The translations under genes and the position numbers were made by a program. From a virus (taxonomy: Duplodnaviria; Caudoviricetes), in the IMG/VR virus record IMGVR_UViG_3300043414_000845, positions 1 to 60,552 of that record: DNA of 60,552 bases; one strand, 5' to 3'. Numbering within the stretch: position 1 is the stretch's first letter; each line of letters starts with the position of its first letter. Below, in pieces: positions 16,231-59,661 of the stretch. Below the pieces are notes generated by a model. That model was not told the DNA's origin. It did not search any database and saw only the letters and a list, made by a program, of their open reading frames with translations.

Positions 16231-16320
16231 GGAAGAATGGCAGAGCGGCTTATCGCAACACCTTGGAAAGGTGTCGTTCCTGAAAGGGAACCGTAGGTTC
16301 AAATCCTACTTCTTCCGCCA
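16231..16320 (+). tRNA. tRNA-Ser(GGA)
   Basis: GGAAGAA/TTCTTCC acceptor stem, ACACC-TTGGAAA-GGTGT anticodon arm, long variable arm, GTTCAAATC T-loop, G discriminator, encoded CCA. Confidence 0.93.
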
Positions 16321-16375: not shown

Positions 16376-16464
16376 GGACGGGTGGCAGAGTGGTCTATCG
16401 CGGCGGTCTTGAAAACCGCTGTCCCTACTGGGGACCGTGGGTTCGAATCCTACCCCGTCCGCCA
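16376..16464 (+). tRNA. tRNA-Ser(TGA)
   Basis: GGACGGG/CCCGTCC acceptor stem, GCGGT-CTTGAAA-ACCGC anticodon arm, long variable arm, GTTCGAATC, encoded CCA. Confidence 0.95.
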
Positions 16465-24802: not shown

Positions 24803-25555
24803 TTAACCTTGAACGGTCCACATATCGTCGGACAGGTTCCGGTCCGCCAGGTACGCAAACGGCATCGAGCAGTAGCCCTTGTTGCCCCAGTCCGGACCCC
24901 AGGAGTTGCGAACGATGAACCTCTTTGATTTCTGCGAGTACCCGACGGCCAGGACCGCATGACCACCCTCGACCTGGTCACCAGGCTTCGGCATCGGCAC
25001 CTTGCCGGTGCGCGCCACCGCATCGCTCATGAACGACGTGTAGACCGTGAACCCGAAGACGAACGGGAACCCCGCCGCCAGGCAGCGCAGCATGTCGTCG
25101 AGCGTGACGATGCGCTGGTACTTCGTGAACTTGTGGTTGGCAGCGCTGGCATAGGCTTGCGTCGACGGCTTCACGGCAAACATGCTGATGTCGTAGGGCC
25201 AGATCGCCTCCAGGGATGCGCCGGTCGTCCGGATCGCCTTGATGCCGTCCCGGATGTACGCGCCGGAGTCCTGACTGACCTCGTTGATGTACTCGCGCTC
25301 GCAGTAGTAGATGAACAAACGGCTGATGTCGGCCGCCGACTTGCCACCCTTGCCCTCCAGGAGCTCAATGGCCCCGGCGATTGCGTTGCCGGTGCACGAG
25401 CCGAGTTGCCCCTGGTCCTCGACCGGCGAGCACAGAGGGCGAAGGTCCTTGATGATCGGGAGCTTGGCCACCGCAACCTTCTTCGGTGCGTAGATGTGGT
25501 CGCGTTGGTCCGGGAGGTCCGGACGCCAGTTCAGCTTCCTACTTTGGTTCGTCAT
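24803..25555 (-). CDS. C1A papain-like cysteine peptidase (xylellain-like)
   Basis: DQGQLGSCTGNA (oxyanion Q, catalytic C), GGHAVLAVGY (H), RNSWGPDWGNKGY (N); WRPDLPDQRD N-terminus; no signal peptide. Confidence 0.93.
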   Translation of the reverse strand: MTNQSRKLNWRPDLPDQRDHIYAPKKVAVAKLPIIKDLRPLCSPVEDQGQLGSCTGNAIAGAIELLEGKGGKSAADISRLFIYYCEREYINEVSQDSGAYIRDGIKAIRTTGASLEAIWPYDISMFAVKPSTQAYASAANHKFTKYQRIVTLDDMLRCLAAGFPFVFGFTVYTSFMSDAVARTGKVPMPKPGDQVEGGHAVLAVGYSQKSKRFIVRNSWGPDWGNKGYCSMPFAYLADRNLSDDMWTVQG

Positions 25556-28887: not shown

Positions 28888-31800
28888 CTAGTCCCCTAAA
28901 TCGACGCCAAGGTCTCGATAATAATCGAGCAGCGGGTCTTCCCGCTCCCTGGTGGTGGTGATGCGTGGGATAGGCTTCGGCGCAGGCAGTCGTGGCCGGA
29001 TCGGTGGCTGTTCGGATTTTTGCTCTGCGCGCTTCCGCAGGCCGGTCAACTTCTTGACCCCCCGTGGCAGTGCCTGGCGCAAGATAGCACCAAGATGCTG
29101 AATCGAGCTATCGCTGAGTCCGTCGTCGCCGCCCAGCATTCCGAGCCAGCTCACCTCCATGCTTTCGCCACTCACCGTGCCGTTGATGCGGCCGATGGGC
29201 TTGCCGTGCAGCATGATGGCGAACTGCTTCAGGTGCGGTGCCCCGCGGCGCTGCTCCAGCCAGTCCTTCTTGTAGACCCGCTCCAGGTCTCCCTGCTGGT
29301 CCGAGATGGTGGCCTGCTCGCCAGCGTCGACCTTGCCGTTGGCAAAGCCGTCACGAAGGGTGTCGAGGAACCGGCCGCCCTGGGGCGCGTCCTCGTACTT
29401 CGTGTCGAACTTGTCACCCATCTGGTACAGGATGTGGTTCATGCGCTCGCTGAACGAACCGGTGTTGTTGACCGATTTGATCTGGTTCGGGTGGAAGGCG
29501 ATGTAATGCACGACGTCGTCGTCGATGCGGGGGCGCTCTGCGCTACCACCGTCGAACTGAGCAGGCCAGCGGTCCTTTACTTCCGTATCGATGACGCCGT
29601 CGTAGCCCATCTTCTCGAACAGGCTCCGCATCACTTCCGGGATCGGGTTGTCAGCCCGAAACTTCGGAAGCTCTGTCATTACGGCATGCAACAACTTCGG
29701 GTCGTCCATCAGTTGCCAGACAAAGTAGCCCGCCCCAATCGTTGTCCCGTGTGGCACCGTGTTCATGATTTTGGAAAGCCATTCAGTGAACTTCTGCCTC
29801 ACCACCTTGTTCTTGTAGAGGTCACCATCGACTCCCTTCAGAACGCTCGGCAGGTGGTCCAGCATCGCGTGCATTGTTGACTTCGGGATGCTGGTTTCGT
29901 TTGGCCCTCCAAGGTAGAGGGGCTTTTGGATGCTGAGGTAGAACGAATAGATAGCCCCCTCATGCGCCGTGGTTGCCTGCTTCCACTCCTTCACTTTCTG
30001 CTCCAGCTCCTTCGTGGTCAATGTGGGAGCTTCCGACGCGGCGTGATCCCACGCCCTCTGATCGAAGTCCGGGGCGTCGTAGCCGGTGTAGTTAAACGAG
30101 GCGTCGTCACGGCTATTGGTGAAGTAGAACCTGTTGCCAAAGAAGTTCCCGTTGTTGCCAGGCTTGAACTCGGTGATGTCGTGGTTCGACCCGTGGAACA
30201 CCGTGATCGGATGACCGACGCTGTCGATGGCGTGGCTCTTCTTCCACCAGGACTTGAACTCCGGCGTGTTGACCTTCGGGTCCGCCGGGGCCAGCTCGCC
30301 CTTTTTGTATTTATCCTTCACCGGCACATACGGCAGCTCCTTCTGGTACATGACCCGCTTGTCGGTCGTGCTCCATTCGCCGCCGTTGTTGACGCCCTTG
30401 ATCTGCCCCTGGTCGAACACGCGGTATTCGACGGCATCCTTGGCAGCGCTCCACGCGAGATGGATTGCTCCGTCATAGCCCTTCGACGCCGCCAGCTTCA
30501 CAAACCCAGGGTCGTCCAGGAGGATGTTGGCCTGAATGTAAAGGTCGTTGATGGCGGCCGGGTTCTCGTCCAGGAGTTCCCTCACAGAATCGTAGTCGTC
30601 GAACTTCTCGTGCCAATTGTCCGTGTCCATGATGGCGCTCTCCAGGACGTCGCCGTCCTCGATCACCTTGAGCAACTCGCGCTTGCCCAACTTCCGAACC
30701 AATGGGGCGAGCTCGGTAAACGGATCATCCTTGTCTTCGAAGATCGGGTGCTCGATCCTGGCGTAGTACGTGCCAACCCTTGGGGCCTCCGCAACGTCTC
30801 TGCGGATGTTTGGCTCTAGGGCATACATGCTCGCCATGTCCGGGTCCTCGACGAGCGTGATGGACGGCAGCCTGGTCTGGATGTCCTCGCCGTTAGGCTC
30901 CCCGTGCTCACCGCGGTACAGCGCGAGCGGCTTGCCCTTGCCATCGACAACCCTGGAAATGCCGAACCACTTCTTGAAGTTATGGCTCTCCGGGTCACCT
31001 GCCGCCTGGTAGAGGATGCGCTTGTCGCCCCTGTTCCAGGTGCCGCTGTTGTGCGTCGACTTCACCTGCCCCTGCTCGAACGGCCGGTAGGTGTCATGAA
31101 CCGGAACGCCAGTGCTGCCCTCCTCCAGCTTGTCCCTGCCAGGCTCGTAGTGGTCAGCGCCGCCTTCGAAGACGTCCTTGTGGATCACGCCGTCGTAGCC
31201 AAGCTGCTTCAGCATGTCGACGAACATGGGTGAGTCCGCGAAGCTGTAGGCGTCCAGCGAACTGTCGTGCAGGGCGTTCTCCAGCTCCTCGTACTTGCCG
31301 TCTTCGCCGAGCTGCTCGATCAGATCGGCCAGCTCGTCAAAGCTGCGGACCTGCATGCCGTCGCTGTCCCCCGCGCGAATGTCGTGCTCGGCACCAGTGC
31401 GGTAAGCCGTGGTGTCCATGTCCCGAAGAGCTTCCGCGATGTCGATGTATCCGACCTTGCCATCGTGCAGGCCTGTAGGCTCGTTCCAGTCGTAGTTCAG
31501 GAGCTCGACGACGTCGCCCAGCGATGGGTGTTCGCCGACGGCGCGCAGGTCCAGGGGCTTCTTGATTGACAGGTAGGTGGGCAGCACGTTCGATCCAGCG
31601 CCGTACTGCTTGCCTGGCAACTGCCTGGAGTAGACGGACGCCACATCCGGATCAGGCGTGAAGGACGGCGTCGCCCGGCCACTGGTGAGGGTAAACCCAT
31701 CCTCCCTGGCATTGCGACGCTGGCCGCGGAACAGCTTGAGCGGGCGGCCGTCAGGAGTTGTTGCAACACTGCCTTCAAAGAAGCGTTTGAACGCAGGTGT

Positions 31801-34800
31801 ATCGGTCGTCGCCCTGGCTACGCGGTCAGCGTAGTCCGTCTCGCCGTCCGCGATCTGGTAGCGCAGCATCTTGTTGGCAGGCTTCACAACCACACCAGCC
31901 TTGTCCGTGATCTCCGTCTGGTAGCCCTGGCGAGCCTCCGGCGTGACCTTGATGCCGTGGATTTCGTGGAAGGCTTTGGCGTTCCGCTCAACCTTCAGCT
32001 CCGACCACGATGGCGTCGACCCCTCCGCGATGTCGCTCTCGTTCTGAAGTCGCTTGGCTTCGGCGTATGCCTCGGCCGCTTCGCGCGTGCTGAACGATTC
32101 GACGTTTTCTCGGAGTCCTGATTGTTCCCAACGGTGCTGACCAGTGACCGCCCACGCCTCTGCTGGGTTCTTCACGACCCGCAGCGTCCCCCACTTCAGG
32201 CCCATCTTCGCCAGGAAGGCCTTCGAGTCCTTCTGAACGGTCTTGTCGTAGAAGTTCATCATGCCCTGGTTATTGATCGCGAGGCCGCCATCTTCGATGG
32301 TGCCAGACGCGATGTACTTATCTGTCGGATCGAACGCGGAGTTGTGCCCGTGCCGTTGCTGGACGATCTGCTCCGCCCCAGCCTTGCCAAGGTTGTTCTT
32401 GATGTCGAGCTCCGTCAGCCCTTCCAGGACGTGCCGCTGCCGGTGCTGCCGGTCTTTCTGCATGTCGATCTCAAGGTCGAACTTGCCGTCGCGGCGCTCC
32501 TTCCAGACCAGCTTCTTCACCGCGGTCCGCAGGGCCCCTGGATAGCGCTCGACCTGCTGCGCGCCCGTGGGCATGCCGACCCAGTCGTAGCCGTTCACAA
32601 TCGCCTCATGCAGGATGTACTTGAGGGCGACCATCGGCCACGAGTCTTTGTGGGGAAGGCTGTCTGGCTGAGGATCGGCTGACATGAGCTTCGACCAGGC
32701 TTCATCCGACTTGTTGATTCCGCGGCCAATGCGAAGCCTTGCGCGCGACAATAATTCGGCCTCAACAAGCGCGTTAGAGGCGTTCGGTACAATCCCCCGG
32801 CTTGGCAGCTTCTTGAGCTGCTCCTTCAGGTATCTCACCGCCCCTTGCATGTGACTTGGGATTTTGTCGGAGTCGACGCCAAGGTATTCCGAAGTGTACT
32901 CCACGTCGTCCCACTTGGCGTAGTCGCCAAACGTCCAGTCCTCTCCCTTGCGCGGGTCCGTGTCGTACAGACGCTTCAGGTCGAGGTTCAACGAGATGGC
33001 TTCTTTCAGGGCATGTGAGAGCGCGCGTGCGTTATCCCTCACGCCCTCCTTATGCTTGTTGAGCTCTGTGGTCCCCAGGTACTTAAGCTCGCGCTCTTCT
33101 GCCCCGTACCCAGTATACCCTTGTTCGCGCGGGCCAAGCACATCGGCCAGAATCTTGGCTGCCTGGCGAGCTGCCTGGTGCGGGTCGGACTGGTCTTCCT
33201 CGAACACGATGGCCTTGCCACCGTCTTCCGCTTCAAAGTCCTGCGCGCGGAAATGCTGCGCGATGTTGCGATGGTCATCCGATCCGAAGTGCGATGGCAG
33301 GCCTCTGCTGACCTGGTCCCGGATTCGCTCTGCCGGAGAGGACGGGTCTGGCTGGTAAATCTGCACAGCGTTCTCACCAGGAGGCGCGAGCAGCAGCTTG
33401 TCTGGCAGCGTCGGGATCGTCACCAGGTACTCGCGCTTGTAGGTGCCACCACCCTTGAGGTTGTAGCTGCCGTACCGGGTGCTATCCACTGAGGTCGGGA
33501 TACGTGGTCGGTTGTTGTTGTTGTTCCGACGGCGATTGTTACCGTACCAGTGGTGCCGCACGCGATCCGCCAGGTCGTTATGATCCAGCTCTGACCCAGC
33601 TTCATCGACCAATGCGTCAACGGCCTGTGACACCCACCAGTCGTGGTCATCGTTCAGCTCCTCTTCTATTTCGTCGTGAGCCTGCTCGGACCATTCTTCA
33701 TACCAATCGTTGTTCAGGCGCTCAGCGGCACGCTCGCCAGAGCGCTCCGTTTCAAAGTGGTCGCCGGATTCCTCCCAGTCGTCGTTCTTCAGGTCGTAGA
33801 CCCGGTAGCCTTCCTGCGGCTCCTCCTCGGTGTAGAAGACGCGGGACTCGTCGCGGATGTGTTGAAGCGCCTTCTTGATGGCCTCTTCTTCACTGTCGCC
33901 AACGATAGTTTCCTTGACCTCGTGGTTGTGAAAATCCGCGTCATGATCGTGATTGTCAGGGTCGGAGAGCTGGTACTCCGGCTGGTCATCGTTTGACAGC
34001 TCGTCGGTGTCGATCTCTTCTCCGCCAATATCGACGGGCTTGTTCTTCCTGTTCGTGGCATGCTGGTGAATGTCGACCTCCCACTTCGAAGGCCTTCCCA
34101 TCAGGCGGGTCAGCAACCCTCCGACCTCACGCGGCTTGCCGTGGAAGTAGACCGTGGGCTTCATATACCGGTTGTTGCTAACGTCCCAGTCAGCGTCGCT
34201 CTCGCTTTCATGGATGTCGTGGTAGTCGACGGTTTCCCCACGACCGTCGCGCTCCACGACCCGATAGGCTGGGTTGTCGTACTCGCGGTGCTCGTACCGG
34301 GTGCGCGGGTTGTCGTCGCCGCCATCGTAGTGATCCAAGCGGTCGCTAATTTCGTCTGAGGCGAAGTTGTCCCGGATGTACTCCCTGACGTCGTCCATAT
34401 CGTCGAAGCGAGATTCGTCCATGTCAACCGTCTCGAACGGATCGCCTGGAAAGTCCGGGTCCGCGGGCGGCGCGGCTGGCACCGGCTTCTTCTTCTCTTC
34501 CTGGACCGTCAATGCCCGCGACAGCGGCTTCGTGCCGTCGTCCTTGATAATGACGTGCAGCTCGGTGCGGTTGTCCTCGCGCCGGTTGACGACGTGGTCC
34601 TTGGTCAGCGGCTTGTCTTTGAACTCGGTGAACAGATGCTCCAGGCCGGTGTCGCGCAGCTCCTCCGGCTTCACACCCTGCTTGATGAGCTCCGCTCGCC
34701 ACTGGGCCCCGTGGCCCCTGGTGAGCTTGGTCGACCCAAGGGCGATGTCCAGGGCGCTGTCGAAGACGTTGTCGAGCTTGGACTCCGGCGTGACCTGGTA

Positions 34801-37800
34801 GTGCACCTTGCCGGAAGCGTCCGTCGCCAGGCCGTAGTCCGTGGTCGCCGTTGCCCCGAGCTTCCTCAGCTTCCGCTTGGCGCGGGCACCGATGTGACCG
34901 GCGTCCAGCATGGCCATGACGTCCTCGCCCTTGACCTTCTTGCCCAGGACGCGATGCACGCCGACGCGGATCGCCTTCAGGACTCCGTCCATGCGGTAGA
35001 GCATCTTGCGGATGATCGGCGGGTAGCCCTTGAACTTCGTCGGGCGGCCGACCCCGAGCTCCTGGACGATGGCTTCCGACATCATCACGTCGGGGCCCTT
35101 GTTCTCGTAGTAACTCAGGAACTTCTCGTGTTTTTTGAACAGCTTCTCCTTGGCGTAGCGCGTGAGGGCTTCCCACTCGTGCGGCTTGAAGATGCCAAGG
35201 CCCTTGAAGAAGTCGACGACGACGTGGCCGCCCTCGTGCCTACCCGACCCCATCGCATCCTTGTTGCGGAGCGCCACGACGACCATTTCGCCGAAGTTCA
35301 CACCACCCAGGGGGGACATGCGGCCGTCCTCGCCGCGGGTCAGCAGGCGTTCGACGAAGGCCACCTTGGCCCCTGGCGCGATGCGCTGGATTTCCTCGAT
35401 GATCGACTTCATGAGCGGGGCGTGCTTGGCCGCCTGCTCCTTCGTCAGAGAGACCTTCCGCAGGTCGTCCATGTTGCCGGTGAGCTCGCCGCCGCCCTCG
35501 GTCCGCTGGAGCCGCAGCTTCTTGTAAGCGGCTATCGCCTGGTTACGATTGAACTCGTTCTGAATAGGGTCGTCCGAGTGCTGATAGATGATGCGCTCTG
35601 CCACACCGTTTTTGTCGAGAACCGCTGAGGCGTCCTCGCGGAGGTTGGACGGAACCACCGCTGCGCTGAACTCGTCGATCCCAACTGGTCGCGTGACCTT
35701 CGCTTCAAAGTACGGCCGCGGCATAACCTTCAGGCGACTGAGCATTTCGGTCGCGCTCGCGATCTCTTCGTCCGTCGCGCGAGGAATCTTCGCCCTGATC
35801 GAGCCAGCGACGTCCCCGGTGCGCGCCGCTTCCGTGAGCGCTTCGGCGGCCCAGGCGTTCGACGGGCCACGATATGCGCCCCCGAAGACCTCACCCTTAC
35901 GCGCTGCGACCTCCTCCGGAACCTTTTCCGAAAGGCTACCGATCAGGTCGCTATAGATTTTGTTGACCTCATCGAAGTCCTTGGTGAAGGCAGACTTCGG
36001 AGCCAGCCTGTCAGAGGCCGCCCTGATCTCGTCGAGGGTTTTGAACTGCTGGGCCTGCGCCCCACGCACACGGCCAACGGAGGAAAAGTCTCCAGTGGCG
36101 CGGATGTCGTCGGTGTCGGTCATCATCCGCACCACGTTTTCCAGCGTGTGCGGCAGGTCCCCCTGGAACTTCCAACCTGGGCGAGCGCGGACGTACTCGT
36201 CCTTGAACATGGGCCGGAAGGTCCGGTCGATCCAGGCCTTGAGCCTGGGGTGCTTGGAGACCTGAGCGGCCACCTCTTTGGTCCGAGCAACCGCTGCCGC
36301 CTTGGCTTCCGGGGTTGGCTTCTTGCCCTTACCCTGCCCATGCGGCGACATGATGTTCTCATCCGCCCCGATGATCCCGTGCTCCCTGGCGAACTTCATG
36401 ATCGCAGGGTGGATGCTCCCGAAGTAGTGAGGTGATGCGTCCTTGCCGAAGTCAGACGGCACGGGCTCGCGCTCGTGGCCGGAGCGCCTGATCTCGTCGG
36501 CGAGAATCTCCTTCATCAGGGGGAGCTTGGCCATGTCGATCTTCGCCCCGGTGTACGGGTAGCGGGGCGAGTAGATGTCCGAGTCATAGACCTTGTTGTG
36601 CTGAGAGCGCTGCGGGTCGATCAGGTCGGCATGCCCAAGCAGGGAGATTTCGCCGAACCCAGGCAGTCCATGTTCTGCCTTCACGATGCCAATCGACGGG
36701 GCCGCAAGGCCACCCATGCGGTCAGCGTGGATCAGAGCATCGGCCGAGATGTTGTGCACCACAGCCAGCGTGCCAGGGCGAGCCTCCTCCTCCTCCTTGG
36801 CGATCTGGTAGCGGAACTGTTTCCCCATCTTCGGGGTGATTTCCATGCGCCACATCTGGCGCGGGGTCCTTGCGGTATGTGCCATCTCAAAGAGGGGCTT
36901 GGCGCTATCCCCGAACATCGACCTCTGTTCGTGCTGGATGGCGCGCATGAGCAGGTCGGCGTCATCCTGCGAATCCAGCCGCTCACGAAGGCTATCGAAG
37001 TATCCAGGCATGTCCCGGTTCGGGGTCTGAACCGTAAATTCGAGATCGTCTAGGAGGTGAGGGTTCCTGAAGTCGTTCCTATTGAACCAGGAGCGAAGGA
37101 GGCGCGTGTAATCGCCAGCCTTCACTTTTTGATTGAGCTTGGTGATGGCGGCCAGCATCTGGCGGCGACCTTCGCTGCCAATCGGATGGTCAATCGCCAC
37201 CTTGCGACCATTGCCAATCGCTTCAGGAACCTTGCTGGCCAGAACCTTGAGGACCTTGTTCCGGTCGTTGGTGGACAAGTAGTAGTGCATGAAGTCGACC
37301 AGGTCGGCGGATGACCCACCCCCCTGTTTCTCCATGAGGTTCATCTCCTCGTAGACGCGCATCATCGGGTCCAGGAGCTCGTACGCGAGACCGTTCTGGT
37401 CGGTCAGGACGCCCTTCACGGCATCCTTGAACTTGCCCCAGCCAGCGTCACCTACGCTGAACGGGTTGAGCGTCTGTGGCATGTTGGTCGGGTCGTGCGA
37501 CGCGGACTTGAGCTCCGGCTTGAACCCGAACGGCTTGCCGAGCTCCCTGGCCCACTCAACCTTCTTTTGGTCGTAGAGCTTCTTGTGGAACTCGCCGCCC
37601 GTCTTCAGGTCTTCACCCTCGTAGCGCAGCCATGTGTCCTGGTTGCCTTCAGGGTCCCACGTCTTCGCCTTGTCGAATATCTTCTTGGCGTGCTCTGCGC
37701 TGATGTGGTCGGCAAGGTCCTTGAACGTCGACTCCCGGTGATTGATTGGCGTGTCGCCACCAATCTTGACGGCAGTCCAGACGACCTTGTCACCGTTGGG

Positions 37801-40764
37801 GTTGCTGCGGTCGGCCGGGCGGAAGGTGATATGCTCCAGCTTATTTTCCAGGCTGTTGCGCTTGGCCTGCTGCTCGCCCGTCGTCCAGGAGATGTGGCGC
37901 AGACCTTTCGACAGCGCGACCTGGACCATGCGCTTCATCGACGTCTTGCCCCAGGAATCCAGGTGCGGGACTATCGGCGTCCGGTTGACTTCGCTCTCGA
38001 CGTCCATGCGCTTCTGGTCGAGAGCCTGCCACTCGGCCTGAAGGCGGATGACCTCGTCGTAGTCCCGCCTTGCAATCTCCTGCTCGTATGGCGAGTAGCC
38101 CATCCTGGCGGCATCGGCCGGATCGCGCTCAGCCAACTCCAGGAGGTGCTTGGCTCTGGGGGCGACCCGGTTACGCATGCTGGGCTCGGTGGGGCCGATC
38201 CCCACCAACTTTTCAACAAGGCCGCTGTAGTCGCTGAGGATGGCGTTCCAGGCTGCGTGCTTGCTCTTGAACTCATCTTGGAGGGCATCCGCTCGGTTGC
38301 GGATGGCGGTTGGCGACTCTTCGCGGAACCCTTCCGTCCGTCCCCTCTGGATGACGTCAGACTGAGCCTCGTCGTCTTGAAGGGAGGTTACTCCGTCGTC
38401 GAACTCCAGCGTGCCATAGCGGTTGTGGAACACGGAGTTCTTGTGGCCAAAGTGGTCACCGTGCGTGTCGCCGATGTTCCAGCGGCTGTCATTCCACTGC
38501 TGCGAGGCGTCCTTCCACGGCTCAACAACGTCCCGCTCGTAGTCCTTGTTGAACGCCTCTTTTTCCTCCAGCGACATCCGTGACCACAGCTCACGAGAGT
38601 CTGAACCAAGCCTCTCGCCGACATACTCCGTCAGACTCTTGAGCGACGGGCGCTCCTTGACCTGCTGGACGACTCGCTCTTCGTAGTTGCCGACCCCTGG
38701 GGAGACGAGCTCCTGGCCGGTGTATTTGTCCCACTTGGAGTAGCCGACTTCGGAGAGCGGGCCATCATGTGTAACGCCATCCGTATCCACCATCTCGATG
38801 GCGTCCGGGGGCGGTGAGGTCAGAGCTTCGTCCTTGCTGGCGAACTCACCAGTCTTCTCACCAGTCCTCTGATCGACCCACCTGAATGCCCCATCTGGGT
38901 CATTCACGTATGGGTTAGATCGGTCCTGAATCAGGACGTAGCGTTTCTCGTCGTGCCTGGCCGCCGAGTACAGGTGCTCCTTGAAGACCGGCGTGTTGCG
39001 CTTGATGAGCGCATCGATCTCGGCCCGCGACCACGCCTTCTTCGGGTCCTTCTTGAACTCAGCGGTGAGCCCCAGGTCCTTCATCTCCTCCGGCTTCACG
39101 CCCTTGTTCAGCATGATGCCATGCCAGTCCGACATGGGGGCCTTGGAGAGCTTCAGGTTGTCGAAGACCTCGCGCGACTTGAGCGGGAGCTGCTCGTTGA
39201 TGTCGCGCAGCCTGGTGTCGACCGGCTCCTCGTCCGCCTTCTGGTAGCGAACGGTTCTGCGCGGCTGCTGACCATCGTTGTGCATGCCCTGGTAGTCAGA
39301 CTCAGCCCATGATTGAGCCACTTCCGGAGATAGCTTCAAAGGGGTCGACGGCCTGGTCTTCCCGGCAGACCTCATGTCCTGGTTGACCCAGTCCGCGTCG
39401 CCGGTCTTGTCGTCCTCTTCAAGGACATGACGGTCCGTTTGGCCATCATCATAGGTGACTGTTCGCCGAACGCGGCCGTCGTCCAGGTGATCGTACCTGA
39501 CGTTGTGGTCCTCGTTCTTGCCATGCACCCGGTGTTCTTCGCCCAGGTTCACACCCTGGTCGGCGGGCTTTGCCCTTGGTTTGATGTCCGTTGGGGCAGC
39601 GCCAGCCTGTTGGCTCCGCGGATCGCTACCGTTCAGGTGGGCGTAGTCGGACGGCCGTGCCTCCTGGATGCCGTTGATGAAGTGCTCGTCGCCACCAGCC
39701 CCGCCAGGGCCGTCAGGGCCTCCAGGAAGGCTGGAGCCGGGTTGGTGGTCACCGAGCCCTAGTACAGAGCCCAGCCTCTCCGCGCCCGTCTGGAGGACGG
39801 ATGGGCCCACGTTTTCGATGTAGCGGTCCAGGAACGACTGGTCCGAGCGGTCGCCCGTGTACTCCTCATCGGCGATCATATTCCAGATGCCAACTGTCGG
39901 TTGCAGACCGAACATCTGGAAAACGCCGTTCGCGATCTCGTTGGAGAACGGGTTGGCCCCCATCAGCAATCCAGCCGCGCCCGCGAACCCCGTGTCGATC
40001 AGGGCGGCATTCCCGGCTTCCTGCCAGGCACGCTCCGGATCATCCGGATACTTCTGTAACGCAGCCTGGAACTTCGGGCCTGCGGACTGCAACCAGGTGC
40101 CAACCATTGCGCCACCAGCGCCGCCTTCAACAGCCGTGCTGAGCGCCACCGTCGGACCAGCGCCCATCATCGCTCCAGCCATCACTTGAAGAGCCATCGG
40201 TGCCATACGCATCGCACGCGACGTGATCTTCTTGGCGGTCAGGCTCCAGTCGTCGTTCGCTACGTTGATCGGGCTGTCGGTCTTGTCCAGCGGAAGTCGA
40301 CGCATGTTCGCCGGAGTGCCGTCAGCCAGCGTCGCCACGGTCTGGGCCATGTCGCCCACGCCCTTGCCGACCTGGCCTGCGGTCGCACGGAACCAGCCAG
40401 GCTCCTCCAGCGACAACGGCTCGCCCTGGGACGGCGTCACACCAGGCACGAAGGAGCGCGCGTGGAAGAGCTCGCCTTCAGGCCTCACGAAGTCCTGGGT
40501 GTTCGCGTCCTCGTGCAGCAGCTCCGGAGCCTGGTACTCTTCGTTGATCAGGTTGTTGGCGACGTTGGACTGGCCAATGGTCACCATAGGCTTGATGCGG
40601 CGATAGTCCTGGGACGCAGCCGACTGCTCGGCCCGGTTAAAGTCAAAGTTCAGCATCCAGGGGGGGGTGGTCGGCGGCTGCGCTACAGGCGGCTTCGCTA
40701 CAGGCGGCTGCGCCGGAGCCTGATCGTCGTCCGTGACCCAGTTGAACTCCCAAGGATTCGCCAT
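28888..40764 (-). CDS. Giant (3958 aa) polyvalent virion/ejection protein with several ADP-ribosyltransferase-like domains, an HExxH metallopeptidase, a duplicated QSD domain and a C-terminal GNAT-like domain
   Basis: Follows the ejection genes; three modules of the form FKxWF/W...G.P...(R/H)G...GYDG...F...Q(I/V)K (ART-PolyVal type); RHEGGH; two GVKPEE...QSD...TGxQQ...YD modules. Confidence 0.85.
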   Translation of the reverse strand: MANPWEFNWVTDDDQAPAQPPVAKPPVAQPPTTPPWMLNFDFNRAEQSAASQDYRRIKPMVTIGQSNVANNLINEEYQAPELLHEDANTQDFVRPEGELFHARSFVPGVTPSQGEPLSLEEPGWFRATAGQVGKGVGDMAQTVATLADGTPANMRRLPLDKTDSPINVANDDWSLTAKKITSRAMRMAPMALQVMAGAMMGAGPTVALSTAVEGGAGGAMVGTWLQSAGPKFQAALQKYPDDPERAWQEAGNAALIDTGFAGAAGLLMGANPFSNEIANGVFQMFGLQPTVGIWNMIADEEYTGDRSDQSFLDRYIENVGPSVLQTGAERLGSVLGLGDHQPGSSLPGGPDGPGGAGGDEHFINGIQEARPSDYAHLNGSDPRSQQAGAAPTDIKPRAKPADQGVNLGEEHRVHGKNEDHNVRYDHLDDGRVRRTVTYDDGQTDRHVLEEDDKTGDADWVNQDMRSAGKTRPSTPLKLSPEVAQSWAESDYQGMHNDGQQPRRTVRYQKADEEPVDTRLRDINEQLPLKSREVFDNLKLSKAPMSDWHGIMLNKGVKPEEMKDLGLTAEFKKDPKKAWSRAEIDALIKRNTPVFKEHLYSAARHDEKRYVLIQDRSNPYVNDPDGAFRWVDQRTGEKTGEFASKDEALTSPPPDAIEMVDTDGVTHDGPLSEVGYSKWDKYTGQELVSPGVGNYEERVVQQVKERPSLKSLTEYVGERLGSDSRELWSRMSLEEKEAFNKDYERDVVEPWKDASQQWNDSRWNIGDTHGDHFGHKNSVFHNRYGTLEFDDGVTSLQDDEAQSDVIQRGRTEGFREESPTAIRNRADALQDEFKSKHAAWNAILSDYSGLVEKLVGIGPTEPSMRNRVAPRAKHLLELAERDPADAARMGYSPYEQEIARRDYDEVIRLQAEWQALDQKRMDVESEVNRTPIVPHLDSWGKTSMKRMVQVALSKGLRHISWTTGEQQAKRNSLENKLEHITFRPADRSNPNGDKVVWTAVKIGGDTPINHRESTFKDLADHISAEHAKKIFDKAKTWDPEGNQDTWLRYEGEDLKTGGEFHKKLYDQKKVEWARELGKPFGFKPELKSASHDPTNMPQTLNPFSVGDAGWGKFKDAVKGVLTDQNGLAYELLDPMMRVYEEMNLMEKQGGGSSADLVDFMHYYLSTNDRNKVLKVLASKVPEAIGNGRKVAIDHPIGSEGRRQMLAAITKLNQKVKAGDYTRLLRSWFNRNDFRNPHLLDDLEFTVQTPNRDMPGYFDSLRERLDSQDDADLLMRAIQHEQRSMFGDSAKPLFEMAHTARTPRQMWRMEITPKMGKQFRYQIAKEEEEARPGTLAVVHNISADALIHADRMGGLAAPSIGIVKAEHGLPGFGEISLLGHADLIDPQRSQHNKVYDSDIYSPRYPYTGAKIDMAKLPLMKEILADEIRRSGHEREPVPSDFGKDASPHYFGSIHPAIMKFAREHGIIGADENIMSPHGQGKGKKPTPEAKAAAVARTKEVAAQVSKHPRLKAWIDRTFRPMFKDEYVRARPGWKFQGDLPHTLENVVRMMTDTDDIRATGDFSSVGRVRGAQAQQFKTLDEIRAASDRLAPKSAFTKDFDEVNKIYSDLIGSLSEKVPEEVAARKGEVFGGAYRGPSNAWAAEALTEAARTGDVAGSIRAKIPRATDEEIASATEMLSRLKVMPRPYFEAKVTRPVGIDEFSAAVVPSNLREDASAVLDKNGVAERIIYQHSDDPIQNEFNRNQAIAAYKKLRLQRTEGGGELTGNMDDLRKVSLTKEQAAKHAPLMKSIIEEIQRIAPGAKVAFVERLLTRGEDGRMSPLGGVNFGEMVVVALRNKDAMGSGRHEGGHVVVDFFKGLGIFKPHEWEALTRYAKEKLFKKHEKFLSYYENKGPDVMMSEAIVQELGVGRPTKFKGYPPIIRKMLYRMDGVLKAIRVGVHRVLGKKVKGEDVMAMLDAGHIGARAKRKLRKLGATATTDYGLATDASGKVHYQVTPESKLDNVFDSALDIALGSTKLTRGHGAQWRAELIKQGVKPEELRDTGLEHLFTEFKDKPLTKDHVVNRREDNRTELHVIIKDDGTKPLSRALTVQEEKKKPVPAAPPADPDFPGDPFETVDMDESRFDDMDDVREYIRDNFASDEISDRLDHYDGGDDNPRTRYEHREYDNPAYRVVERDGRGETVDYHDIHESESDADWDVSNNRYMKPTVYFHGKPREVGGLLTRLMGRPSKWEVDIHQHATNRKNKPVDIGGEEIDTDELSNDDQPEYQLSDPDNHDHDADFHNHEVKETIVGDSEEEAIKKALQHIRDESRVFYTEEEPQEGYRVYDLKNDDWEESGDHFETERSGERAAERLNNDWYEEWSEQAHDEIEEELNDDHDWWVSQAVDALVDEAGSELDHNDLADRVRHHWYGNNRRRNNNNNRPRIPTSVDSTRYGSYNLKGGGTYKREYLVTIPTLPDKLLLAPPGENAVQIYQPDPSSPAERIRDQVSRGLPSHFGSDDHRNIAQHFRAQDFEAEDGGKAIVFEEDQSDPHQAARQAAKILADVLGPREQGYTGYGAEERELKYLGTTELNKHKEGVRDNARALSHALKEAISLNLDLKRLYDTDPRKGEDWTFGDYAKWDDVEYTSEYLGVDSDKIPSHMQGAVRYLKEQLKKLPSRGIVPNASNALVEAELLSRARLRIGRGINKSDEAWSKLMSADPQPDSLPHKDSWPMVALKYILHEAIVNGYDWVGMPTGAQQVERYPGALRTAVKKLVWKERRDGKFDLEIDMQKDRQHRQRHVLEGLTELDIKNNLGKAGAEQIVQQRHGHNSAFDPTDKYIASGTIEDGGLAINNQGMMNFYDKTVQKDSKAFLAKMGLKWGTLRVVKNPAEAWAVTGQHRWEQSGLRENVESFSTREAAEAYAEAKRLQNESDIAEGSTPSWSELKVERNAKAFHEIHGIKVTPEARQGYQTEITDKAGVVVKPANKMLRYQIADGETDYADRVARATTDTPAFKRFFEGSVATTPDGRPLKLFRGQRRNAREDGFTLTSGRATPSFTPDPDVASVYSRQLPGKQYGAGSNVLPTYLSIKKPLDLRAVGEHPSLGDVVELLNYDWNEPTGLHDGKVGYIDIAEALRDMDTTAYRTGAEHDIRAGDSDGMQVRSFDELADLIEQLGEDGKYEELENALHDSSLDAYSFADSPMFVDMLKQLGYDGVIHKDVFEGGADHYEPGRDKLEEGSTGVPVHDTYRPFEQGQVKSTHNSGTWNRGDKRILYQAAGDPESHNFKKWFGISRVVDGKGKPLALYRGEHGEPNGEDIQTRLPSITLVEDPDMASMYALEPNIRRDVAEAPRVGTYYARIEHPIFEDKDDPFTELAPLVRKLGKRELLKVIEDGDVLESAIMDTDNWHEKFDDYDSVRELLDENPAAINDLYIQANILLDDPGFVKLAASKGYDGAIHLAWSAAKDAVEYRVFDQGQIKGVNNGGEWSTTDKRVMYQKELPYVPVKDKYKKGELAPADPKVNTPEFKSWWKKSHAIDSVGHPITVFHGSNHDITEFKPGNNGNFFGNRFYFTNSRDDASFNYTGYDAPDFDQRAWDHAASEAPTLTTKELEQKVKEWKQATTAHEGAIYSFYLSIQKPLYLGGPNETSIPKSTMHAMLDHLPSVLKGVDGDLYKNKVVRQKFTEWLSKIMNTVPHGTTIGAGYFVWQLMDDPKLLHAVMTELPKFRADNPIPEVMRSLFEKMGYDGVIDTEVKDRWPAQFDGGSAERPRIDDDVVHYIAFHPNQIKSVNNTGSFSERMNHILYQMGDKFDTKYEDAPQGGRFLDTLRDGFANGKVDAGEQATISDQQGDLERVYKKDWLEQRRGAPHLKQFAIMLHGKPIGRINGTVSGESMEVSWLGMLGGDDGLSDSSIQHLGAILRQALPRGVKKLTGLRKRAEQKSEQPPIRPRLPAPKPIPRITTTREREDPLLDYYRDLGVDLGD

Positions 40765-40769
40765 TGTGC

Positions 40770-41396
40770 CTACCGCTGTTTCCAGTTGTTCTTGTCACGA
40801 TAATTGCCACCCATGTAGGTGTAGCCGCCGACCGTCATGCCGGGTCGTAGCGTGTTCGTGCCGCTAACCGGCCGGTTGCCGCCGCCCTGCCCGGTCCAGT
40901 TCGCCTCCTGGTCGGACGGGATGTAGCCCTTGCGGAGCTGGTCTTCCATCGGCTCTTCCGACGGAAGCATCGGACGTTGGCGGGGCCTGTTCTGAGCGAT
41001 CAGCCGGTCCATGTCGCCGGAGTAGGTATGCAGGGCCTTCAGGTAATTGTAGACGCTGCGCTCCGGGTCGTTCGGCCCGAGCTGCCCCAGCTTCTGGTTC
41101 AGGTACTGGCCCGCCTGCATGTGCCTGCCCCGGTCAATCATTCCCTGCGCGAACTGCTTTTGGCGCTGCATGTTGTTCCACGCCCCTTCGTTGAGGGGGG
41201 CGTCGAGGCCAGGCTGCTCCTGAACCGGCGACGGACCGTACGACACGCGACCAGGAGCCTGGGCTGGCATCCTGCGCTGGATCGGCTGCGAGTACGGCAT
41301 GGGCGCAGGCGGCCGACGGATCGGCATGACCACGGACTCGTCCGGATCATCGAACTGCAACCCATGAGGAAGGTAGTCGATTGGTTCAAAGGGCAT
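40770..41396 (-). CDS. Putative ejection/internal virion protein
   Basis: C-terminal GMTVGGYTYMGGNYRDKNNW motif typical of ejection-region proteins. Confidence 0.6.
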   Translation of the reverse strand: MPFEPIDYLPHGLQFDDPDESVVMPIRRPPAPMPYSQPIQRRMPAQAPGRVSYGPSPVQEQPGLDAPLNEGAWNNMQRQKQFAQGMIDRGRHMQAGQYLNQKLGQLGPNDPERSVYNYLKALHTYSGDMDRLIAQNRPRQRPMLPSEEPMEDQLRKGYIPSDQEANWTGQGGGNRPVSGTNTLRPGMTVGGYTYMGGNYRDKNNWKQR

Positions 41397-43970: not shown

Positions 43971-45418
43971 TAGTGAACTCCCTCTACGATAGGCGAAACG
44001 CCGATGCCGTTCGTGCGTGGCGGCGGCTTCTTCGGCGGGGGCGCGGTGCCAGGCGGCGGCGGCGGCAGGTCCTCAGTCCCGCCCATGTCACCAGACCAGA
44101 GGTCGGGGATCGCGCGTTCCGGGTCGATGTACGGCGCATAGACCTTGAGACGGCCGCGTTGCTGCTTGAGCTTGAAGTCGTACGTGTGCTTCGCGATTGC
44201 CTTCAACTGCCTGGCAGCGTCCTGCATCTGCGTGATGACCTCGGGGGTCATGATGTGGCCAGCCTTGGCGTTACCCGCGAGCGACTTCATGCGCTGCACG
44301 TAGGACTGCGCCGTTTGGAGCAGCGAGATTTCACCCTCGCGCACAGCCGATGTCGGGTCGAGCGCGCGCACCATGCTGTAGACCGCGCCAATTTCATCCA
44401 TGCCGGTCGTCGCCTTTGGATCGAGCGCCAGGATGTAGTCGATGGCGGTCTTCTGGCTGAGCACGGGCGCGATGGACTGTGACCACTGGTTGGACTCCTG
44501 GTACTCAGCCGCATGCCTGTCCTTGAGGCCCTCCGGGAATGCGCCAGTCGGTTTGCCGCCAGACGGGCTGCTGGTGCTGAAGGTCGTCCCACCGCCTGGT
44601 GTGATCGTCGTGACGACGCCCTGGTTGTTCTTCGGGTCCCACTCGGTCTTGATCGTCGGGTCGTTGGTGACCGGGTTGATGCCGAACGCAGTTGCGTTGT
44701 TCAGCTCGTTCAGGTGGGCCTGGATCAGCTTCTGGTGCTGGTACTCGTCCTGGAAGTTCTTCCAGCCGTTTACAGGGTTGGTGAACGCTTGCAAGTACTG
44801 CTGAGCGTGCTCCGGCGAGATCATCCCGCGCCCTTGCAGGTCTTCCATCACAGCCTGGAGGTCGGCCTCATTGTTGACGCCGCTCATCGCGTTGACGACG
44901 TGGTTATACTTCTTCGCAGCCGCCATCCGCTCGTCCGGTGTCATGCGGTCGATGGCCGTGGTCACGTAGTCCGGTGCGCCACCCGTGCGCGGCTTGCCAG
45001 CGGCCGGTGCTGCGCCTGGCGTATAACCGGAGGCGGCTTCCGGTGTCGACGGGTCGGTGATCGAGCCGTTCCGGTTGATGCCGCTGTTGTAAGCGTTCTG
45101 CCAGGACTGCAACATCATCGGAGCCCTGACTGGGTTCCACTTGCCGATGAGCGAAGCCGCCTGCTGGTTGCCGCTCTGGGCCAAGGATGTCATGGCCGAG
45201 TCCCACTGATTGGGGTCGCTCTTGCCGATCTCCATCGCACGCATCAGCTCCTGGGCCTTCTGCGCCTGGGTCTGCGCGTCGGCACCGGCCTGGGCTTGTG
45301 CCAACTTCAGGTCATTCATCCTGATGTTCTGGCCAGCCAGCTCACCGTCCGTGAAGGCCCAGCCGCTGGCAGGTGTCGGCGCAATCGCGCCGCCTGGAAT
45401 ACCGAGACCATCAGCCAT
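43970..45418 (-). CDS. DNA ejection protein
   Basis: VRALDPTSAVREGE motif; Q/A-rich; located in the ejection cluster. Confidence 0.75.
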   Translation of the reverse strand: MADGLGIPGGAIAPTPASGWAFTDGELAGQNIRMNDLKLAQAQAGADAQTQAQKAQELMRAMEIGKSDPNQWDSAMTSLAQSGNQQAASLIGKWNPVRAPMMLQSWQNAYNSGINRNGSITDPSTPEAASGYTPGAAPAAGKPRTGGAPDYVTTAIDRMTPDERMAAAKKYNHVVNAMSGVNNEADLQAVMEDLQGRGMISPEHAQQYLQAFTNPVNGWKNFQDEYQHQKLIQAHLNELNNATAFGINPVTNDPTIKTEWDPKNNQGVVTTITPGGGTTFSTSSPSGGKPTGAFPEGLKDRHAAEYQESNQWSQSIAPVLSQKTAIDYILALDPKATTGMDEIGAVYSMVRALDPTSAVREGEISLLQTAQSYVQRMKSLAGNAKAGHIMTPEVITQMQDAARQLKAIAKHTYDFKLKQQRGRLKVYAPYIDPERAIPDLWSGDMGGTEDLPPPPPGTAPPPKKPPPRTNGIGVSPIVEGVH

Positions 45419-59381: not shown

Positions 59382-59661
59382 TGCTGTCGCTTTCCTGTTC
59401 GACGCCGTAGAACGTCGCCAGGACATCGAACTCCATCTCCGTGACTTCACGCAGCATGATCGATCTCCCGCGACCCTCCAGGTCGTCCGTTAGCTTCAGC
59501 GCTCCTGCCTCCCATGCCTGGACTACCTGCCGCGTCATTGCCCCGCGATAGTCTTCCAGGTACTTCATCACAACCTTGGTCACCGGGTGGTGTTTCCAAA
59601 GCTGGAACTCTGCTTCACGAATGCCGCCGACTTCGGGTGGCTTACTTTTGACGTCTGGCAT
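59353..59661 (-). CDS. Conserved hypothetical protein after the portal
   Basis: EFQLWKHHPVTK motif. Confidence 0.75.
   Translation of the reverse strand: MPDVKSKPPEVGGIREAEFQLWKHHPVTKVVMKYLEDYRGAMTRQVVQAWEAGALKLTDDLEGRGRSIMLREVTEMEFDVLATFYGVEQESDSNAVKEDSSE

What the first reader, a model, noticed from the sequence alone, without database searches (positions are those of the whole stretch)
28888..40764. Giant virion protein looks like a protease-processed effector polyprotein: a hydrophobic-x-Y-Q motif marks its domain boundaries
Seen: eight similar motifs fall at apparent module junctions. They are RTVRYQ (Q508, nt ~39241), KQFRYQ (Q1320, ~36805), KKLRLQ (Q1753, ~35506), GKVHYQ (Q1990, ~34795), KMLRYQ (Q2970, ~31855), KRILYQ (Q3253, ~31006), KRVMYQ (Q3474, ~30343) and NHILYQ (Q3781, ~29422). 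The consensus is basic residue, then [VILF]-[RHLM]-Y-Q. They divide the protein into nine pieces: N-terminal ejection anchor, QSD module, ART-like module, HExxH peptidase, second QSD module, three ART modules and a GNAT-like tail. Unrelated modules end in the same motif, so domain duplication alone does not explain it. Known: polyvalent proteins of phages and conjugative elements have been proposed to be delivered with the DNA and processed by embedded peptidases. Inference: the motif is a cleavage signal that releases several anti-host enzymes from one packaged precursor. Caveat: other YQ dipeptides occur inside modules, including RIIYQ at 1728.
Basis: partly seen in the sequence, partly recalled or inferred. 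Interest (0 to 1): 0.92.

Follow-up and report, generated by a model that had tools for sequence, protein, structure and literature searches.

The report
Junction motif in giant phage polyprotein
A 3958-residue phage protein made of many anti-host enzyme modules carries the same short motif at the end of every module, and related giant proteins each carry their own version of it, which looks like a set of protease cutting sites but has not been shown to be cut.

Summary
Observation confirmed. The ORF at 28888-40764 (-) encodes a 3958-aa polyvalent protein, and all eight motifs sit at the stated residues. [VILMF]-x-Y-Q occurs 8 times against 1.08 expected (0 of 20000 shuffles). All eight sites are kept as hydrophobic-x-aromatic-Q in 7 of 7 orthologues; other YQ dipeptides are not.

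The sites end five unrelated module families. All seven that were modelled lie in or at the edge of low-confidence AlphaFold segments. Fifteen of 15 stand-alone ART homologues lack the tail.

New here: the motif is one flavour of a general junction signal. In 62 of 69 polyvalent proteins, the last motif residue (Q, S, R, K or A) is the same at the PBECR5-module end and the ART tail (23.7 expected, 0 of 100000 shuffles). One shared reader, most simply a protease, would explain this.

Cleavage itself is unproven. The papain-like C1 protease is not linked to such proteins in 26 of 27 viral loci. The embedded HExxH module is the better candidate. Piece 3 is a PBECR5 module, not ART-like. Interest is fairly high because the processing hypothesis becomes testable.

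The parts
28888..40764 (-). Giant polyvalent protein gene, 3958 aa, no cysteine
   Evidence: ORF and translation. Pfam ART-PolyVal 88.9 bits and PBECR5 70.1 bits. Six orthologue-like relatives.
39241..40764 (-). N-terminal region, residues 1-508: a conserved core 1-370 with the three most hydrophobic segments of the protein, then a variable linker ending in RTVRYQ
   Evidence: Invariant columns. Hydropathy peaks at 194-212, 253-271 and 280-298. No homologue outside the 7 orthologues. 'Ejection anchor' is inference from gene order.
36805..39240 (-). QSD module 1, residues 509-1320, function unknown, ends in KQFRYQ
   Evidence: Homologous to 1991-2970. Homologues occur in many other polyvalent proteins. 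No Pfam family.
35506..36804 (-). PBECR5-containing module, residues 1321-1753, ends in KKLRLQ
   Evidence: Pfam PF18814, E 6e-19. 2824 representative proteins match it at E<=1e-3.
34795..35505 (-). HExxH module, residues 1754-1990 (HEGGH at 1843-1847), candidate embedded metallopeptidase, ends in GKVHYQ
   Evidence: R1842, H1843, E1844 and H1847 are invariant in 7 of 7. HExxH lies on a predicted helix, followed by a second helix carrying invariant E1863. Homologues in 9 further polyvalent proteins. No Pfam or PDB match.
31855..34794 (-). QSD module 2, residues 1991-2970, with a long acidic insert, ends in KMLRYQ
31006..31854 (-). ART-PolyVal module 1, residues 2971-3253, ends in KRILYQ
   Evidence: Pfam best stretch 3005-3240. 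HMM domain 2982-3257.
30343..31005 (-). ART-PolyVal module 2, residues 3254-3474, ends in KRVMYQ
   Evidence: Fold resembles the ART toxins ParT, RES and NatT, Z 5.8-6.4.
29422..30342 (-). ART-PolyVal module 3, residues 3475-3781, ends in NHILYQ
   Evidence: Fold match to cyanophage A4 pre-ejectosome chain 9k3a_B: Z 9.6, rmsd 4.0, 170 aligned.
28891..29421 (-). C-terminal module, residues 3782-3958, GNAT fold, then a conserved DPLLDYYRxLG end. No junction motif follows it.
   Evidence: VIA-align: 3ey5_A Z 8.6, rmsd 3.2, 86 aligned, plus about 40 further rows of the 50 listed that are acetyltransferase or GNAT-type entries, Z 5.8-7.7. No Pfam hit. Invariant C-terminal residues.
39241..39252 (-). 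Junction motif VRYQ (Q508)
36805..36816 (-). Junction motif FRYQ (Q1320)
35506..35517 (-). Junction motif LRLQ (Q1753). LLFQ, LHFQ or LHWQ in orthologues.
34795..34806 (-). Junction motif VHYQ (Q1990)
31855..31866 (-). Junction motif LRYQ (Q2970)
31006..31017 (-). Junction motif ILYQ (Q3253)
30343..30354 (-). Junction motif VMYQ (Q3474)
29422..29433 (-). Junction motif ILYQ (Q3781)
24803..25555 (-). Papain-family C1 cysteine protease gene in the lysis cassette.
   Evidence: PF00112 E 8.8e-16. Q/C/H/N motifs are visible. Lies between endolysin and holin. Not linked to polyvalent genes elsewhere.

Best explanation
The gene encodes a polyvalent protein in the sense of Iyer et al. 2017: a string of anti-host enzyme modules. 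The phage is a 60.5-kb podovirus whose gene order resembles what the JC1 paper describes for Bcep22-like phages and their 933W-related head genes. The protein is most likely packed in the capsid and ejected with the DNA.

The hydrophobic-x-aromatic-Q motif is this lineage's version of a junction signal that ends modules in a large class of polyvalent proteins. Its form is an aliphatic residue, any residue, usually an aromatic residue, then a lineage-specific residue (Q, S, R, K, A or M), followed by a variable, often acidic linker. All junctions of one protein share the same flavour, whichever module precedes them. They are therefore read by one factor.

I infer that this factor is an endopeptidase that cuts the precursor into nine pieces: N-terminal core, QSD1, PBECR5 module, HExxH module, QSD2, three ARTs and a GNAT-fold tail. 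The cut would come after ejection or inside the head.

The most likely enzyme is the embedded HExxH module acting on its own polypeptide; a host protease is second.

Shown: the motif, its placement, its conservation and its co-variation. Inferred: virion packaging, cleavage, the enzyme and the cut bond. The cut could follow Q. It could instead precede the hydrophobic residue, which would suit a zincin-type preference for a hydrophobic residue after the cut.
For: (1) Real and specific. 8 sites against 1.08 expected, 0 of 20000 shuffles. No enrichment in 35 other ORFs of the window.

(2) Conserved. All eight sites are kept in 7 of 7 orthologues, while nearby linkers vary and carry gaps.

(3) Five unrelated module families end in it.

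(4) Placement in the AlphaFold2 models. Q2970, Q3253, Q3474 and Q3781 lie inside pLDDT<50 segments directly after the last ART strand, while ART cores score 60-85. Q1320 and Q1753 lie at the C-terminal ends of helices where pLDDT falls below 50. Q1990 lies inside a pLDDT<50 segment.

(5) 15 of 15 stand-alone ART homologues, 10 of them on contigs above 6 kb, keep the ART core but lack the tail and motif.

(6) Other lineages have their own flavour at ART and non-ART module ends.
- P0019: S-I-T-A|A at 11 sites, 5 ART and 6 non-ART.
- L015, two ORFs: [IVL]-[TR]-K-S|[AE]DR at 12 sites, 5 ART and 7 non-ART.
- P0026-29: [MV]-R-F-Q|L, with no ART present.

(7) Co-variation. In 69 proteins where both the PBECR5-module end and an ART tail could be read, the last motif residue agrees in 62 (23.7 expected, 0 of 100000 shuffles). 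With the two multi-member lineages collapsed it agrees in 52 of 58. Rare flavours agree too, namely R, K and A; P0015 has M at both ends, seen, outside this count. The three residues after the motif often agree as well.

(8) On a FastTree of the module, about 5 of 6 independent pairs on supported branches change in the same direction and none in the opposite one.

(9) HExxH is invariant in the 7 orthologues. Homologous HExxH modules in 9 other polyvalent proteins are flanked by the local flavour.

(10) A natural split into two ORFs falls 18 residues after a junction motif in L009.

(11) Virion location by analogy. JC1 gp69 gave 51 unique peptides from CsCl-purified virions (passages). phi24B gp47 was detected in virions (passages). 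The gene lies between ejection-protein-like genes and the tail-fibre and lysis genes.

(12) Iyer et al. 2017 proposed processing by embedded zincins (passages).
Against: - No cleavage product, neo-N-terminus or protease-substrate link was observed.
- The AlphaFold models are shallow (7-sequence alignments, mean pLDDT 55.5 and 62.6), so low confidence is weak proof of exposure. At 1320 and 1753 the motif is drawn as the end of a helix, and at 1990 as a short strand.
- The HExxH module matches no Pfam peptidase family, no PDB sequence and no fold.
- Pfam finds no peptidase in P0019, P0021 or the L015 ORF, which still have junction motifs.
- Each module family carries the motif within a conserved C-terminal extension, for example N.G.F..(D/N)-I-x-x-X after ART and IT..M..GQ.LFQ after QSD. 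That could be structural.
- Iyer et al. note that N4 virion RNA polymerase, ArdC and TraC1 travel unprocessed.
- With relatedness controlled, the co-variation test reaches only p 0.0625.
- 7 of 69 pairs disagree. Five are mis-picks by my regular expression. Two look real: P0016 (R against S) and P0177 (R against A).
- Bcep22 gp75, a giant virion protein of the same genome type, shows no such motif.
Confidence: 0.55

Rival explanations
1. The motif is a structural end-piece of each module, a capping helix or strand or an inter-module docking element. The protein then works uncut as one giant ejected polypeptide.
For: Each module family carries the motif inside a conserved C-terminal extension. 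AlphaFold draws FRYQ and LRLQ at helix ends and VHYQ as a short strand. Other giant virion or transfer proteins are delivered unprocessed (Iyer 2017 passages).
Against: Stand-alone ART homologues lack it, 15 of 15. All seven modelled sites border or lie in pLDDT<50 segments. A structural cap gives no reason for unrelated folds in one protein to share the same last residue and often the next three. At 508 the motif sits between two indel-rich, non-conserved stretches.
Confidence: 0.2
2. The motif is read by a shared factor that is not a protease. It could be a repeated handle for packaging into the head, for threading through the tail and ejectosome channel, or for a chaperone. Co-variation would then reflect that partner.
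For: Co-variation shows only that there is a common reader. The protein must be packed and then passed unfolded through a narrow channel (established knowledge of podovirus ejection proteins). No protease could be tied to the motif.
Against: No candidate partner was found. The motif always lies exactly at module ends before linkers, as in polyprotein sites, rather than spread at regular spacing. A natural gene split falls at a junction.
Confidence: 0.13
3. The sites are cut in trans by the phage's papain-family C1 protease (24803-25555), whose substrate pocket for the residue before Gln would take the aromatic residue.
For: The C1 protease is intact, with Q/C/H/N motifs. It is kept at 93% identity at the same place in the closest complete relative. 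Papain-type enzymes favour a bulky hydrophobic residue at that position (general knowledge of the family, recalled).
Against: It lies between endolysin and holin in the lysis cassette. PF00112 is found in 1 of 10 related viral records that carry polyvalent genes, and is absent from a complete record with the ILFQ flavour. Of 27 viral loci with C1 homologues, only the close relative has polyvalent modules within 10 kb.
Confidence: 0.07
4. The pattern is a by-product of module duplication or chance and has no function of its own.
For: Three ART modules and two QSD modules are internal duplicates. A four-residue motif has low information content.
Against: 0 of 20000 shuffles reach the count. Five unrelated module families carry it. 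It is the most conserved element between variable flanks in 7 orthologues. It co-varies across lineages.
Confidence: 0.03

Closest known systems
Polyvalent proteins of phages and conjugative elements (Iyer, Burroughs, Anand, de Souza, Aravind 2017, PMC5512222)
   Same: Many unrelated effector domains in one phage polypeptide. Signature families ART-PolyVal and PBECR5 are present. That paper proposes delivery with the DNA and processing by embedded zincin-like peptidases (passages).
   Different: The paper's main text names no cleavage or junction motif. My word searches for linker, boundar*, conserved motif and junction found none; its supplements could not be opened. The lineage-specific junction motif and its co-variation are added here. 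The HExxH module is not recognised by any Pfam peptidase model.
Polyproteins of RNA viruses with 3C or NIa-type protease sites
   Same: A short motif at every domain junction, with a fixed residue before the cut (Gln) and hydrophobic or aromatic residues two and four positions before it. The flavour is lineage-specific and shared by all junctions. The resemblance to rhinovirus 3C and TEV sites is recalled, not tested.
   Different: No chymotrypsin-fold protease was found. The protein has no cysteine at all. The organism is a DNA phage. Cleavage is not shown.
Head-protease processing of packaged proteins in T4 and phiKZ-like phages
   Same: Internal head proteins are cut at short consensus sites with an aliphatic or small residue two positions before the cut (recalled knowledge).
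   Different: No prohead protease was found in this window. The gene between portal and capsid genes is a coiled-coil scaffold. The motif is absent from the other virion proteins.
Giant DarB-like virion proteins of Bcep22-like podoviruses (Bcep22 gp75, JC1 gp69) and phi24B gp47
   Same: Same genome plan and same position before the lysis genes, with serine tRNA and GNAT genes nearby. Virion presence was shown by mass spectrometry. Bcep22 gp75 also has no cysteine.
   Different: Different domain content: transglycosylase, methylase and helicase. There is no BLAST-level similarity. Bcep22 gp75 shows no enriched junction motif.

Membership tests
Polyvalent protein (Iyer et al. 2017) | Several unrelated effector or enzymatic domains in one polypeptide | tested here: met
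   ART-PolyVal x3, PBECR5, HExxH module, two QSD modules and a GNAT-fold tail.
Polyvalent protein (Iyer et al. 2017) | Encoded by a phage, plasmid or conjugative element | tested here: met
   The window is a virus record with portal, capsid, terminase, ejection-like and lysis genes.
Polyvalent protein (Iyer et al. 2017) | Delivered into the host together with the DNA | not testable with these tools
   Only gene order and analogy to JC1 gp69 and phi24B gp47, which were found in virions.
Polyvalent protein (Iyer et al. 2017) | Embedded zincin-like metallopeptidase (common, not obligatory) | tested here: inconclusive
   HEGGH is invariant in 7 of 7 and lies on a predicted helix. There is no Pfam, PDB-sequence or Foldseek match.
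ART-PolyVal (PF18760) | Score above Pfam's gathering cut-off | tested here: met
   88.9 bits against 31.2, four stretches.
ART-PolyVal (PF18760) | Catalytic residues of an active ADP-ribosyltransferase | not tested
   R-G-E and a later E are invariant in the alignment with stand-alone homologues. I did not map them to a catalytic triad.
PBECR5 (PF18814) | Score above Pfam's gathering cut-off over the domain | tested here: met
   70.1 bits against 25, but only profile positions 3-94 of 239 are matched. The rest of the module (to 1753) is conserved with other polyvalent proteins.
Protease-processed polyprotein | Conserved short motif at domain junctions | tested here: met
Protease-processed polyprotein | Cognate protease identified | tested here: inconclusive
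   The HExxH module is unclassified. The C1 protease is not linked. No prohead protease was found.
Protease-processed polyprotein | Cleavage products observed | not testable with these tools
   Needs proteomics or expression.
Papain family C1 peptidase (PF00112), for the gene at 24803-25555 | Family score and catalytic Gln/Cys/His/Asn motifs | tested here: met
   59.1 bits against 20.7. QGQLGSC, GGHAV and NSWG are visible in the translation.
GNAT acetyltransferase, for residues 3815-3917 | GNAT fold | tested here: met
   3ey5_A Z 8.6, rmsd 3.2, 86 aligned. About 40 further rows of the 50 listed are acetyltransferase or GNAT-type entries, Z 5.8-7.7. The model is of modest confidence.
GNAT acetyltransferase, for residues 3815-3917 | Sequence-family membership and acetyl-CoA motif | tested here: inconclusive
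   No Pfam hit at E<=5. The Atlas lead scores only 0.87.

The most novel reading that the evidence does not exclude
Polyvalent proteins are true polyproteins of DNA phages, and perhaps of conjugative elements. Every module ends in a cleavage signal whose flavour (Q, S, R, K, A, M, or SITA, or TKS|ADR) is a lineage-specific code co-evolving with a dedicated, often embedded, peptidase. One injected precursor is thereby cut into a cocktail of independent anti-host enzymes. The motif would allow the mature products of thousands of such giant proteins to be predicted from sequence alone.
Probability: 0.45. Interest if true: 0.85.

Novelty: new variant of a known kind. Interest (0 to 1): 0.72.

Why it matters
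Processing of polyvalent proteins has been a prediction since 2017, with no sites to test. A junction motif that can be read from sequence and that co-varies within each protein gives exact candidate cut points. Here those are residues 508, 1320, 1753, 1990, 2970, 3253, 3474 and 3781.

It also offers a way to delimit modules in a very large class of giant phage proteins: 2824 representative proteins match the PBECR5 module alone.

If cleavage is confirmed, the motif would show how a single packaged precursor yields many separate counter-defence enzymes. It would also point to a protease family with tunable specificity.

Tried and rejected
- Complex prediction of the C1 protease with junction peptide 2945-2995: no verdict, score 0.00. 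Not used as evidence either way.
- Foldseek of the 1161-residue model against PDB: nothing at E<=0.001. The model has too many domains.
- PDB sequence searches with the protein and with the 7-sequence profile: nothing.
- NCBIfam: no family.
- ESM Atlas. HExxH module: unnamed clusters only, with LPD23 on 18% of one cluster. Tail: scores below 0.9.
- Megablast and tblastn against the phage collection. The gene and the N-terminal 1355 aa found nothing. Residues 989-3958 matched only short stretches in 22 records: 19 over ART module 2 (mostly jumbo phages) and 3 over the start of the PBECR5 module.
- Genome-contig scan: 4 distant loci only, no host assignment.
- A DNA-level recombination signal as the cause of the motif. 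The sites share only the preferred TAC CAG codons and at most about 14 nt, and flavours co-vary at protein level. Rejected as the main cause.
- ART modules at protein C-termini, as a test of whether the tail is junction-specific. Only 3 of 179 lie near an end, and each still has 20-50 residues after the motif. Uninformative.
- Gill et al. 2011 on Bcep22 virion proteomics is not held. I do not know whether gp75 ran as a full-length band.
- Supplements are closed, including those of Iyer 2017. Their domain alignments might already show the motif.
Full report
**What is there**

The window is a 60552-base virus record. The minus strand carries a late operon:
- portal (59642-60505), a Cpn10-like gene, a coiled-coil scaffold and the major capsid protein (55786-56697);
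- an adaptor and a 933W-type 'head closure' protein;
- a GNAT-like gene and a P22 gp7-like 'DNA ejection' protein (45411-46142);
- proteins of 502, 854 and 208 aa;
- the giant ORF 28888-40764;
- a tail-fibre-like protein, an endolysin, a papain-family C1 protease, a holin and an Rz-like spanin.

Large terminase, a DnaB helicase and two tRNA-Ser genes lie elsewhere. No prohead protease was found.

This plan matches what the JC1 paper describes for Bcep22-like phages and for head genes related to 933W. There, a 'massive' protein before the lysis genes was detected in purified virions: JC1 gp69, 4515 aa, 51 unique peptides (passages of PMC9144972). The 2811-aa polyvalent gp47 of phi24B was also found in virions (passages of preprint 10.64898/2026.04.10.717836). 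Virion packaging of the protein studied here is inferred from this analogy and from gene order.

**The protein**

Translation gives 3958 residues and no cysteine. The module map is as follows.
- ART-PolyVal: Pfam 88.9 bits, three modules at 2971-3253, 3254-3474 and 3475-3781.
- PBECR5: Pfam match at 1318-1411.
- QSD modules: 509-1320 and 1991-2970 are homologous to each other and to modules in many other polyvalent proteins.
- HExxH module: 1754-1990 has R-H-E-x-x-H invariant in all seven orthologues. It matches no Pfam family and no solved structure by sequence.
- Tail: 3815-3917 has a GNAT fold (3ey5_A Z 8.6, rmsd 3.2, 86 aligned; about 40 further acetyltransferase or GNAT-type rows).
- ART module 3 resembles a chain of the cyanophage A4 pre-ejectosome (9k3a_B, Z 9.6, rmsd 4.0, 170 aligned). 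This is a lead that fits a role as an ejected protein.
- The three most hydrophobic 19-residue stretches of the protein lie at 194-298.

[VILMF]-x-Y-Q occurs 8 times against 1.08 expected, and 0 of 20000 shuffles reach 8. YQ occurs 13 times against 4.76. The 35 other ORFs of the window show no enrichment, 5 against 9.1.

Six orthologue-like giant proteins of 30-72% identity were found. In the seven-way alignment all eight sites are kept as hydrophobic-x-aromatic-Q; site 1753 reads LRLQ, LLFQ, LHFQ or LHWQ. YQ at 492, 1728, 2265, 2471 and 2949 is not kept. Of 31 Q columns conserved in at least 6 of 7, exactly these eight have the motif form. The four motif residues are more conserved (0.61-0.86) than the 20 residues on either side at every site.

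**Are the motifs in linkers?**

Two AlphaFold2 models were built on seven-sequence alignments: residues 2930-3958 (mean pLDDT 55.5) and 900-2060 (62.6).
- Q2970, Q3253, Q3474 and Q3781 fall inside pLDDT<50 segments that begin right after the last ART strand.
- Q1320 and Q1753 sit at the C-terminal ends of helices where confidence drops below 50.
- Q1990 falls inside a pLDDT<50 segment.
- Q508 was not modelled. It lies between indel-rich stretches.

The models are shallow, so this is supportive rather than strong. An independent check points the same way. Fifteen of 15 stand-alone homologues of ART module 2 (200-362 aa, 10 of them on contigs above 6 kb) keep the core up to the last strand but have no tail and no motif.

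**The motif is one flavour of a general junction signal**

In 35 giant relatives, ART modules end in N.G.F...(D/N)-I-x-x-X, where the last residue depends on the protein: DIRFS, DIRYR, RILFQ, SITA, NIMMQ. The same flavour recurs after non-ART modules of the same protein.
- P0019 has S-I-T-A|A at 11 sites, 5 ART and 6 non-ART.
- Two ORFs of locus L015 have [IVL]-[TR]-K-S|[AE]DR at 12 sites, 5 ART and 7 non-ART.
- P0026-29 have [MV]-R-F-Q|L and no ART at all.

The PBECR5 module, whose end corresponds to Q1753, ends in ...FQ...FS...FR or ...FM according to the protein.

A full HMMER scan with this module found 2824 representative proteins at E<=1e-3, and I took the best 150. In 69 proteins I could read both the PBECR5-module end and an ART tail. 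The last motif residue agrees in 62 (23.7 expected, 0 of 100000 shuffles), or in 52 of 58 after collapsing the two multi-member lineages. Five of the seven disagreements are mis-picks by my pattern (P0001, P0002, P0010, P0055, P0122). P0016 and P0177 look real.

The residues after the motif often agree too, for example FFK|ATE with LYK|ATE and FQ|GAR with EQ|GAR. On a FastTree of the module with the motif columns left out, the flavour changes 18 and 15 times. Of 6 independent pairs on supported branches, the ART flavour follows in about 5 and never goes the other way. The sign test gives p 0.0625, the floor for so few pairs.

Homologues of the HExxH module in nine further proteins are also flanked by the local flavour. 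In L009 the ART and QSD modules are separate ORFs, split 18 residues after the motif.

**What this means**

Unrelated folds in one protein share not only a hydrophobic-x-aromatic pattern but also the same arbitrary last residue. A shared reader is therefore the simplest explanation. Placement exactly at module ends before linkers is the pattern of polyprotein cleavage sites. Iyer et al. 2017 proposed such processing by embedded zincins. In the passages I searched they give no site. Four other literature searches found none either. Supplements were closed.

I put cleavage at about 0.55.

**Which protease?**

Three results count against it:
- It lies within the lysis cassette.
- It is absent from 9 of 10 related viral records with polyvalent genes.
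- Its homologues in 26 of 27 viral loci have no polyvalent module within 10 kb.

The embedded HExxH module is the better candidate, but it is unclassified. Several motif-bearing proteins show no Pfam peptidase, so a host protease remains possible.

The cut bond cannot be placed. It may follow Q. It may instead precede the hydrophobic residue, which would suit a zincin's usual preference for a hydrophobic residue after the cut (recalled knowledge).

**Limits**

The signal is not universal. Bcep22 gp75, fetched as L038, has no enriched motif. No experiment bears on cleavage, and Gill et al. 2011 could not be read.

**Verdict**

The cleavage reading is partly supported. The C1 part of it is unsupported. 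The protein is a new member of a known class. The junction code appears to be an undescribed feature of that class.

Noticed in passing
window 28888-40764 (-); also 40770-41396, 41406-43970, 45411-46142: The 3958-aa protein has no cysteine, against 30.7 expected from the 35 other ORFs. P0002-P0006 and Bcep22 gp75 (4602 aa) also have none. The neighbouring 208-, 854- and 243-aa proteins have none either. This may be selection on proteins that cross the oxidising periplasm unfolded.
   Followed up: partly
window 28891-28935 (-), residues about 3943-3953: The C-terminal DPLLDYYRxLG is invariant in all seven orthologues, after a variable proline-rich stretch. It may be a packaging or anchoring tag.
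   Followed up: no
window 24803-25555 (-): An intact papain-family C1 protease sits between endolysin and holin. Homologues of 32-58% identity occur in 26 other IMG/VR contigs with no polyvalent gene nearby. Its role, in lysis or otherwise, is unknown.
   Followed up: partly
window 16231-16320 and 16376-16464 (+): Two tRNA-Ser genes (GGA and TGA anticodons). The JC1 paper notes a serine tRNA in each Bcep22-like phage.
   Followed up: no
window 58959-59450 (-): A Cpn10/GroES-like gene (PF00166, E 1.5e-10) lies between the portal and scaffold genes.
   Followed up: no
P0002 / L002:10001-20920: The closest relative lacks one ART module. The deletion runs from one ART tail (..NTGTWNRG) to the next tail's DKRILYQ. 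Modules seem to be lost by recombination between the repeated tails.
   Followed up: partly
L009:5949-12592: A related polyvalent protein is split into consecutive ORFs. The first ends 18 residues after the ART junction motif (DITKK|) and the next starts with the QSD module.
   Followed up: partly
window 40531-40542 (-), residues 75-78: EEYQ followed by PELLHE is conserved in 5 of 7 orthologues (P0003 has DEWQ). It has no hydrophobic residue three before Q and is not at a junction. It is probably part of the N-terminal core.
   Followed up: no
phage records H3-H20: ART module 2 has 28-29% identical counterparts in jumbo phages of Serratia, Erwinia and Klebsiella. One is annotated 'PLxRFG domain-containing protein', a name that recalls the junction motif. 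I found no description of that motif.
   Followed up: partly
window 32700-34400 (-), residues about 2120-2690: QSD module 2 carries a long, highly acidic, His- and Asp-rich insert (including NNNNN). It is absent or much shorter in orthologues P0004-P0007.
   Followed up: no
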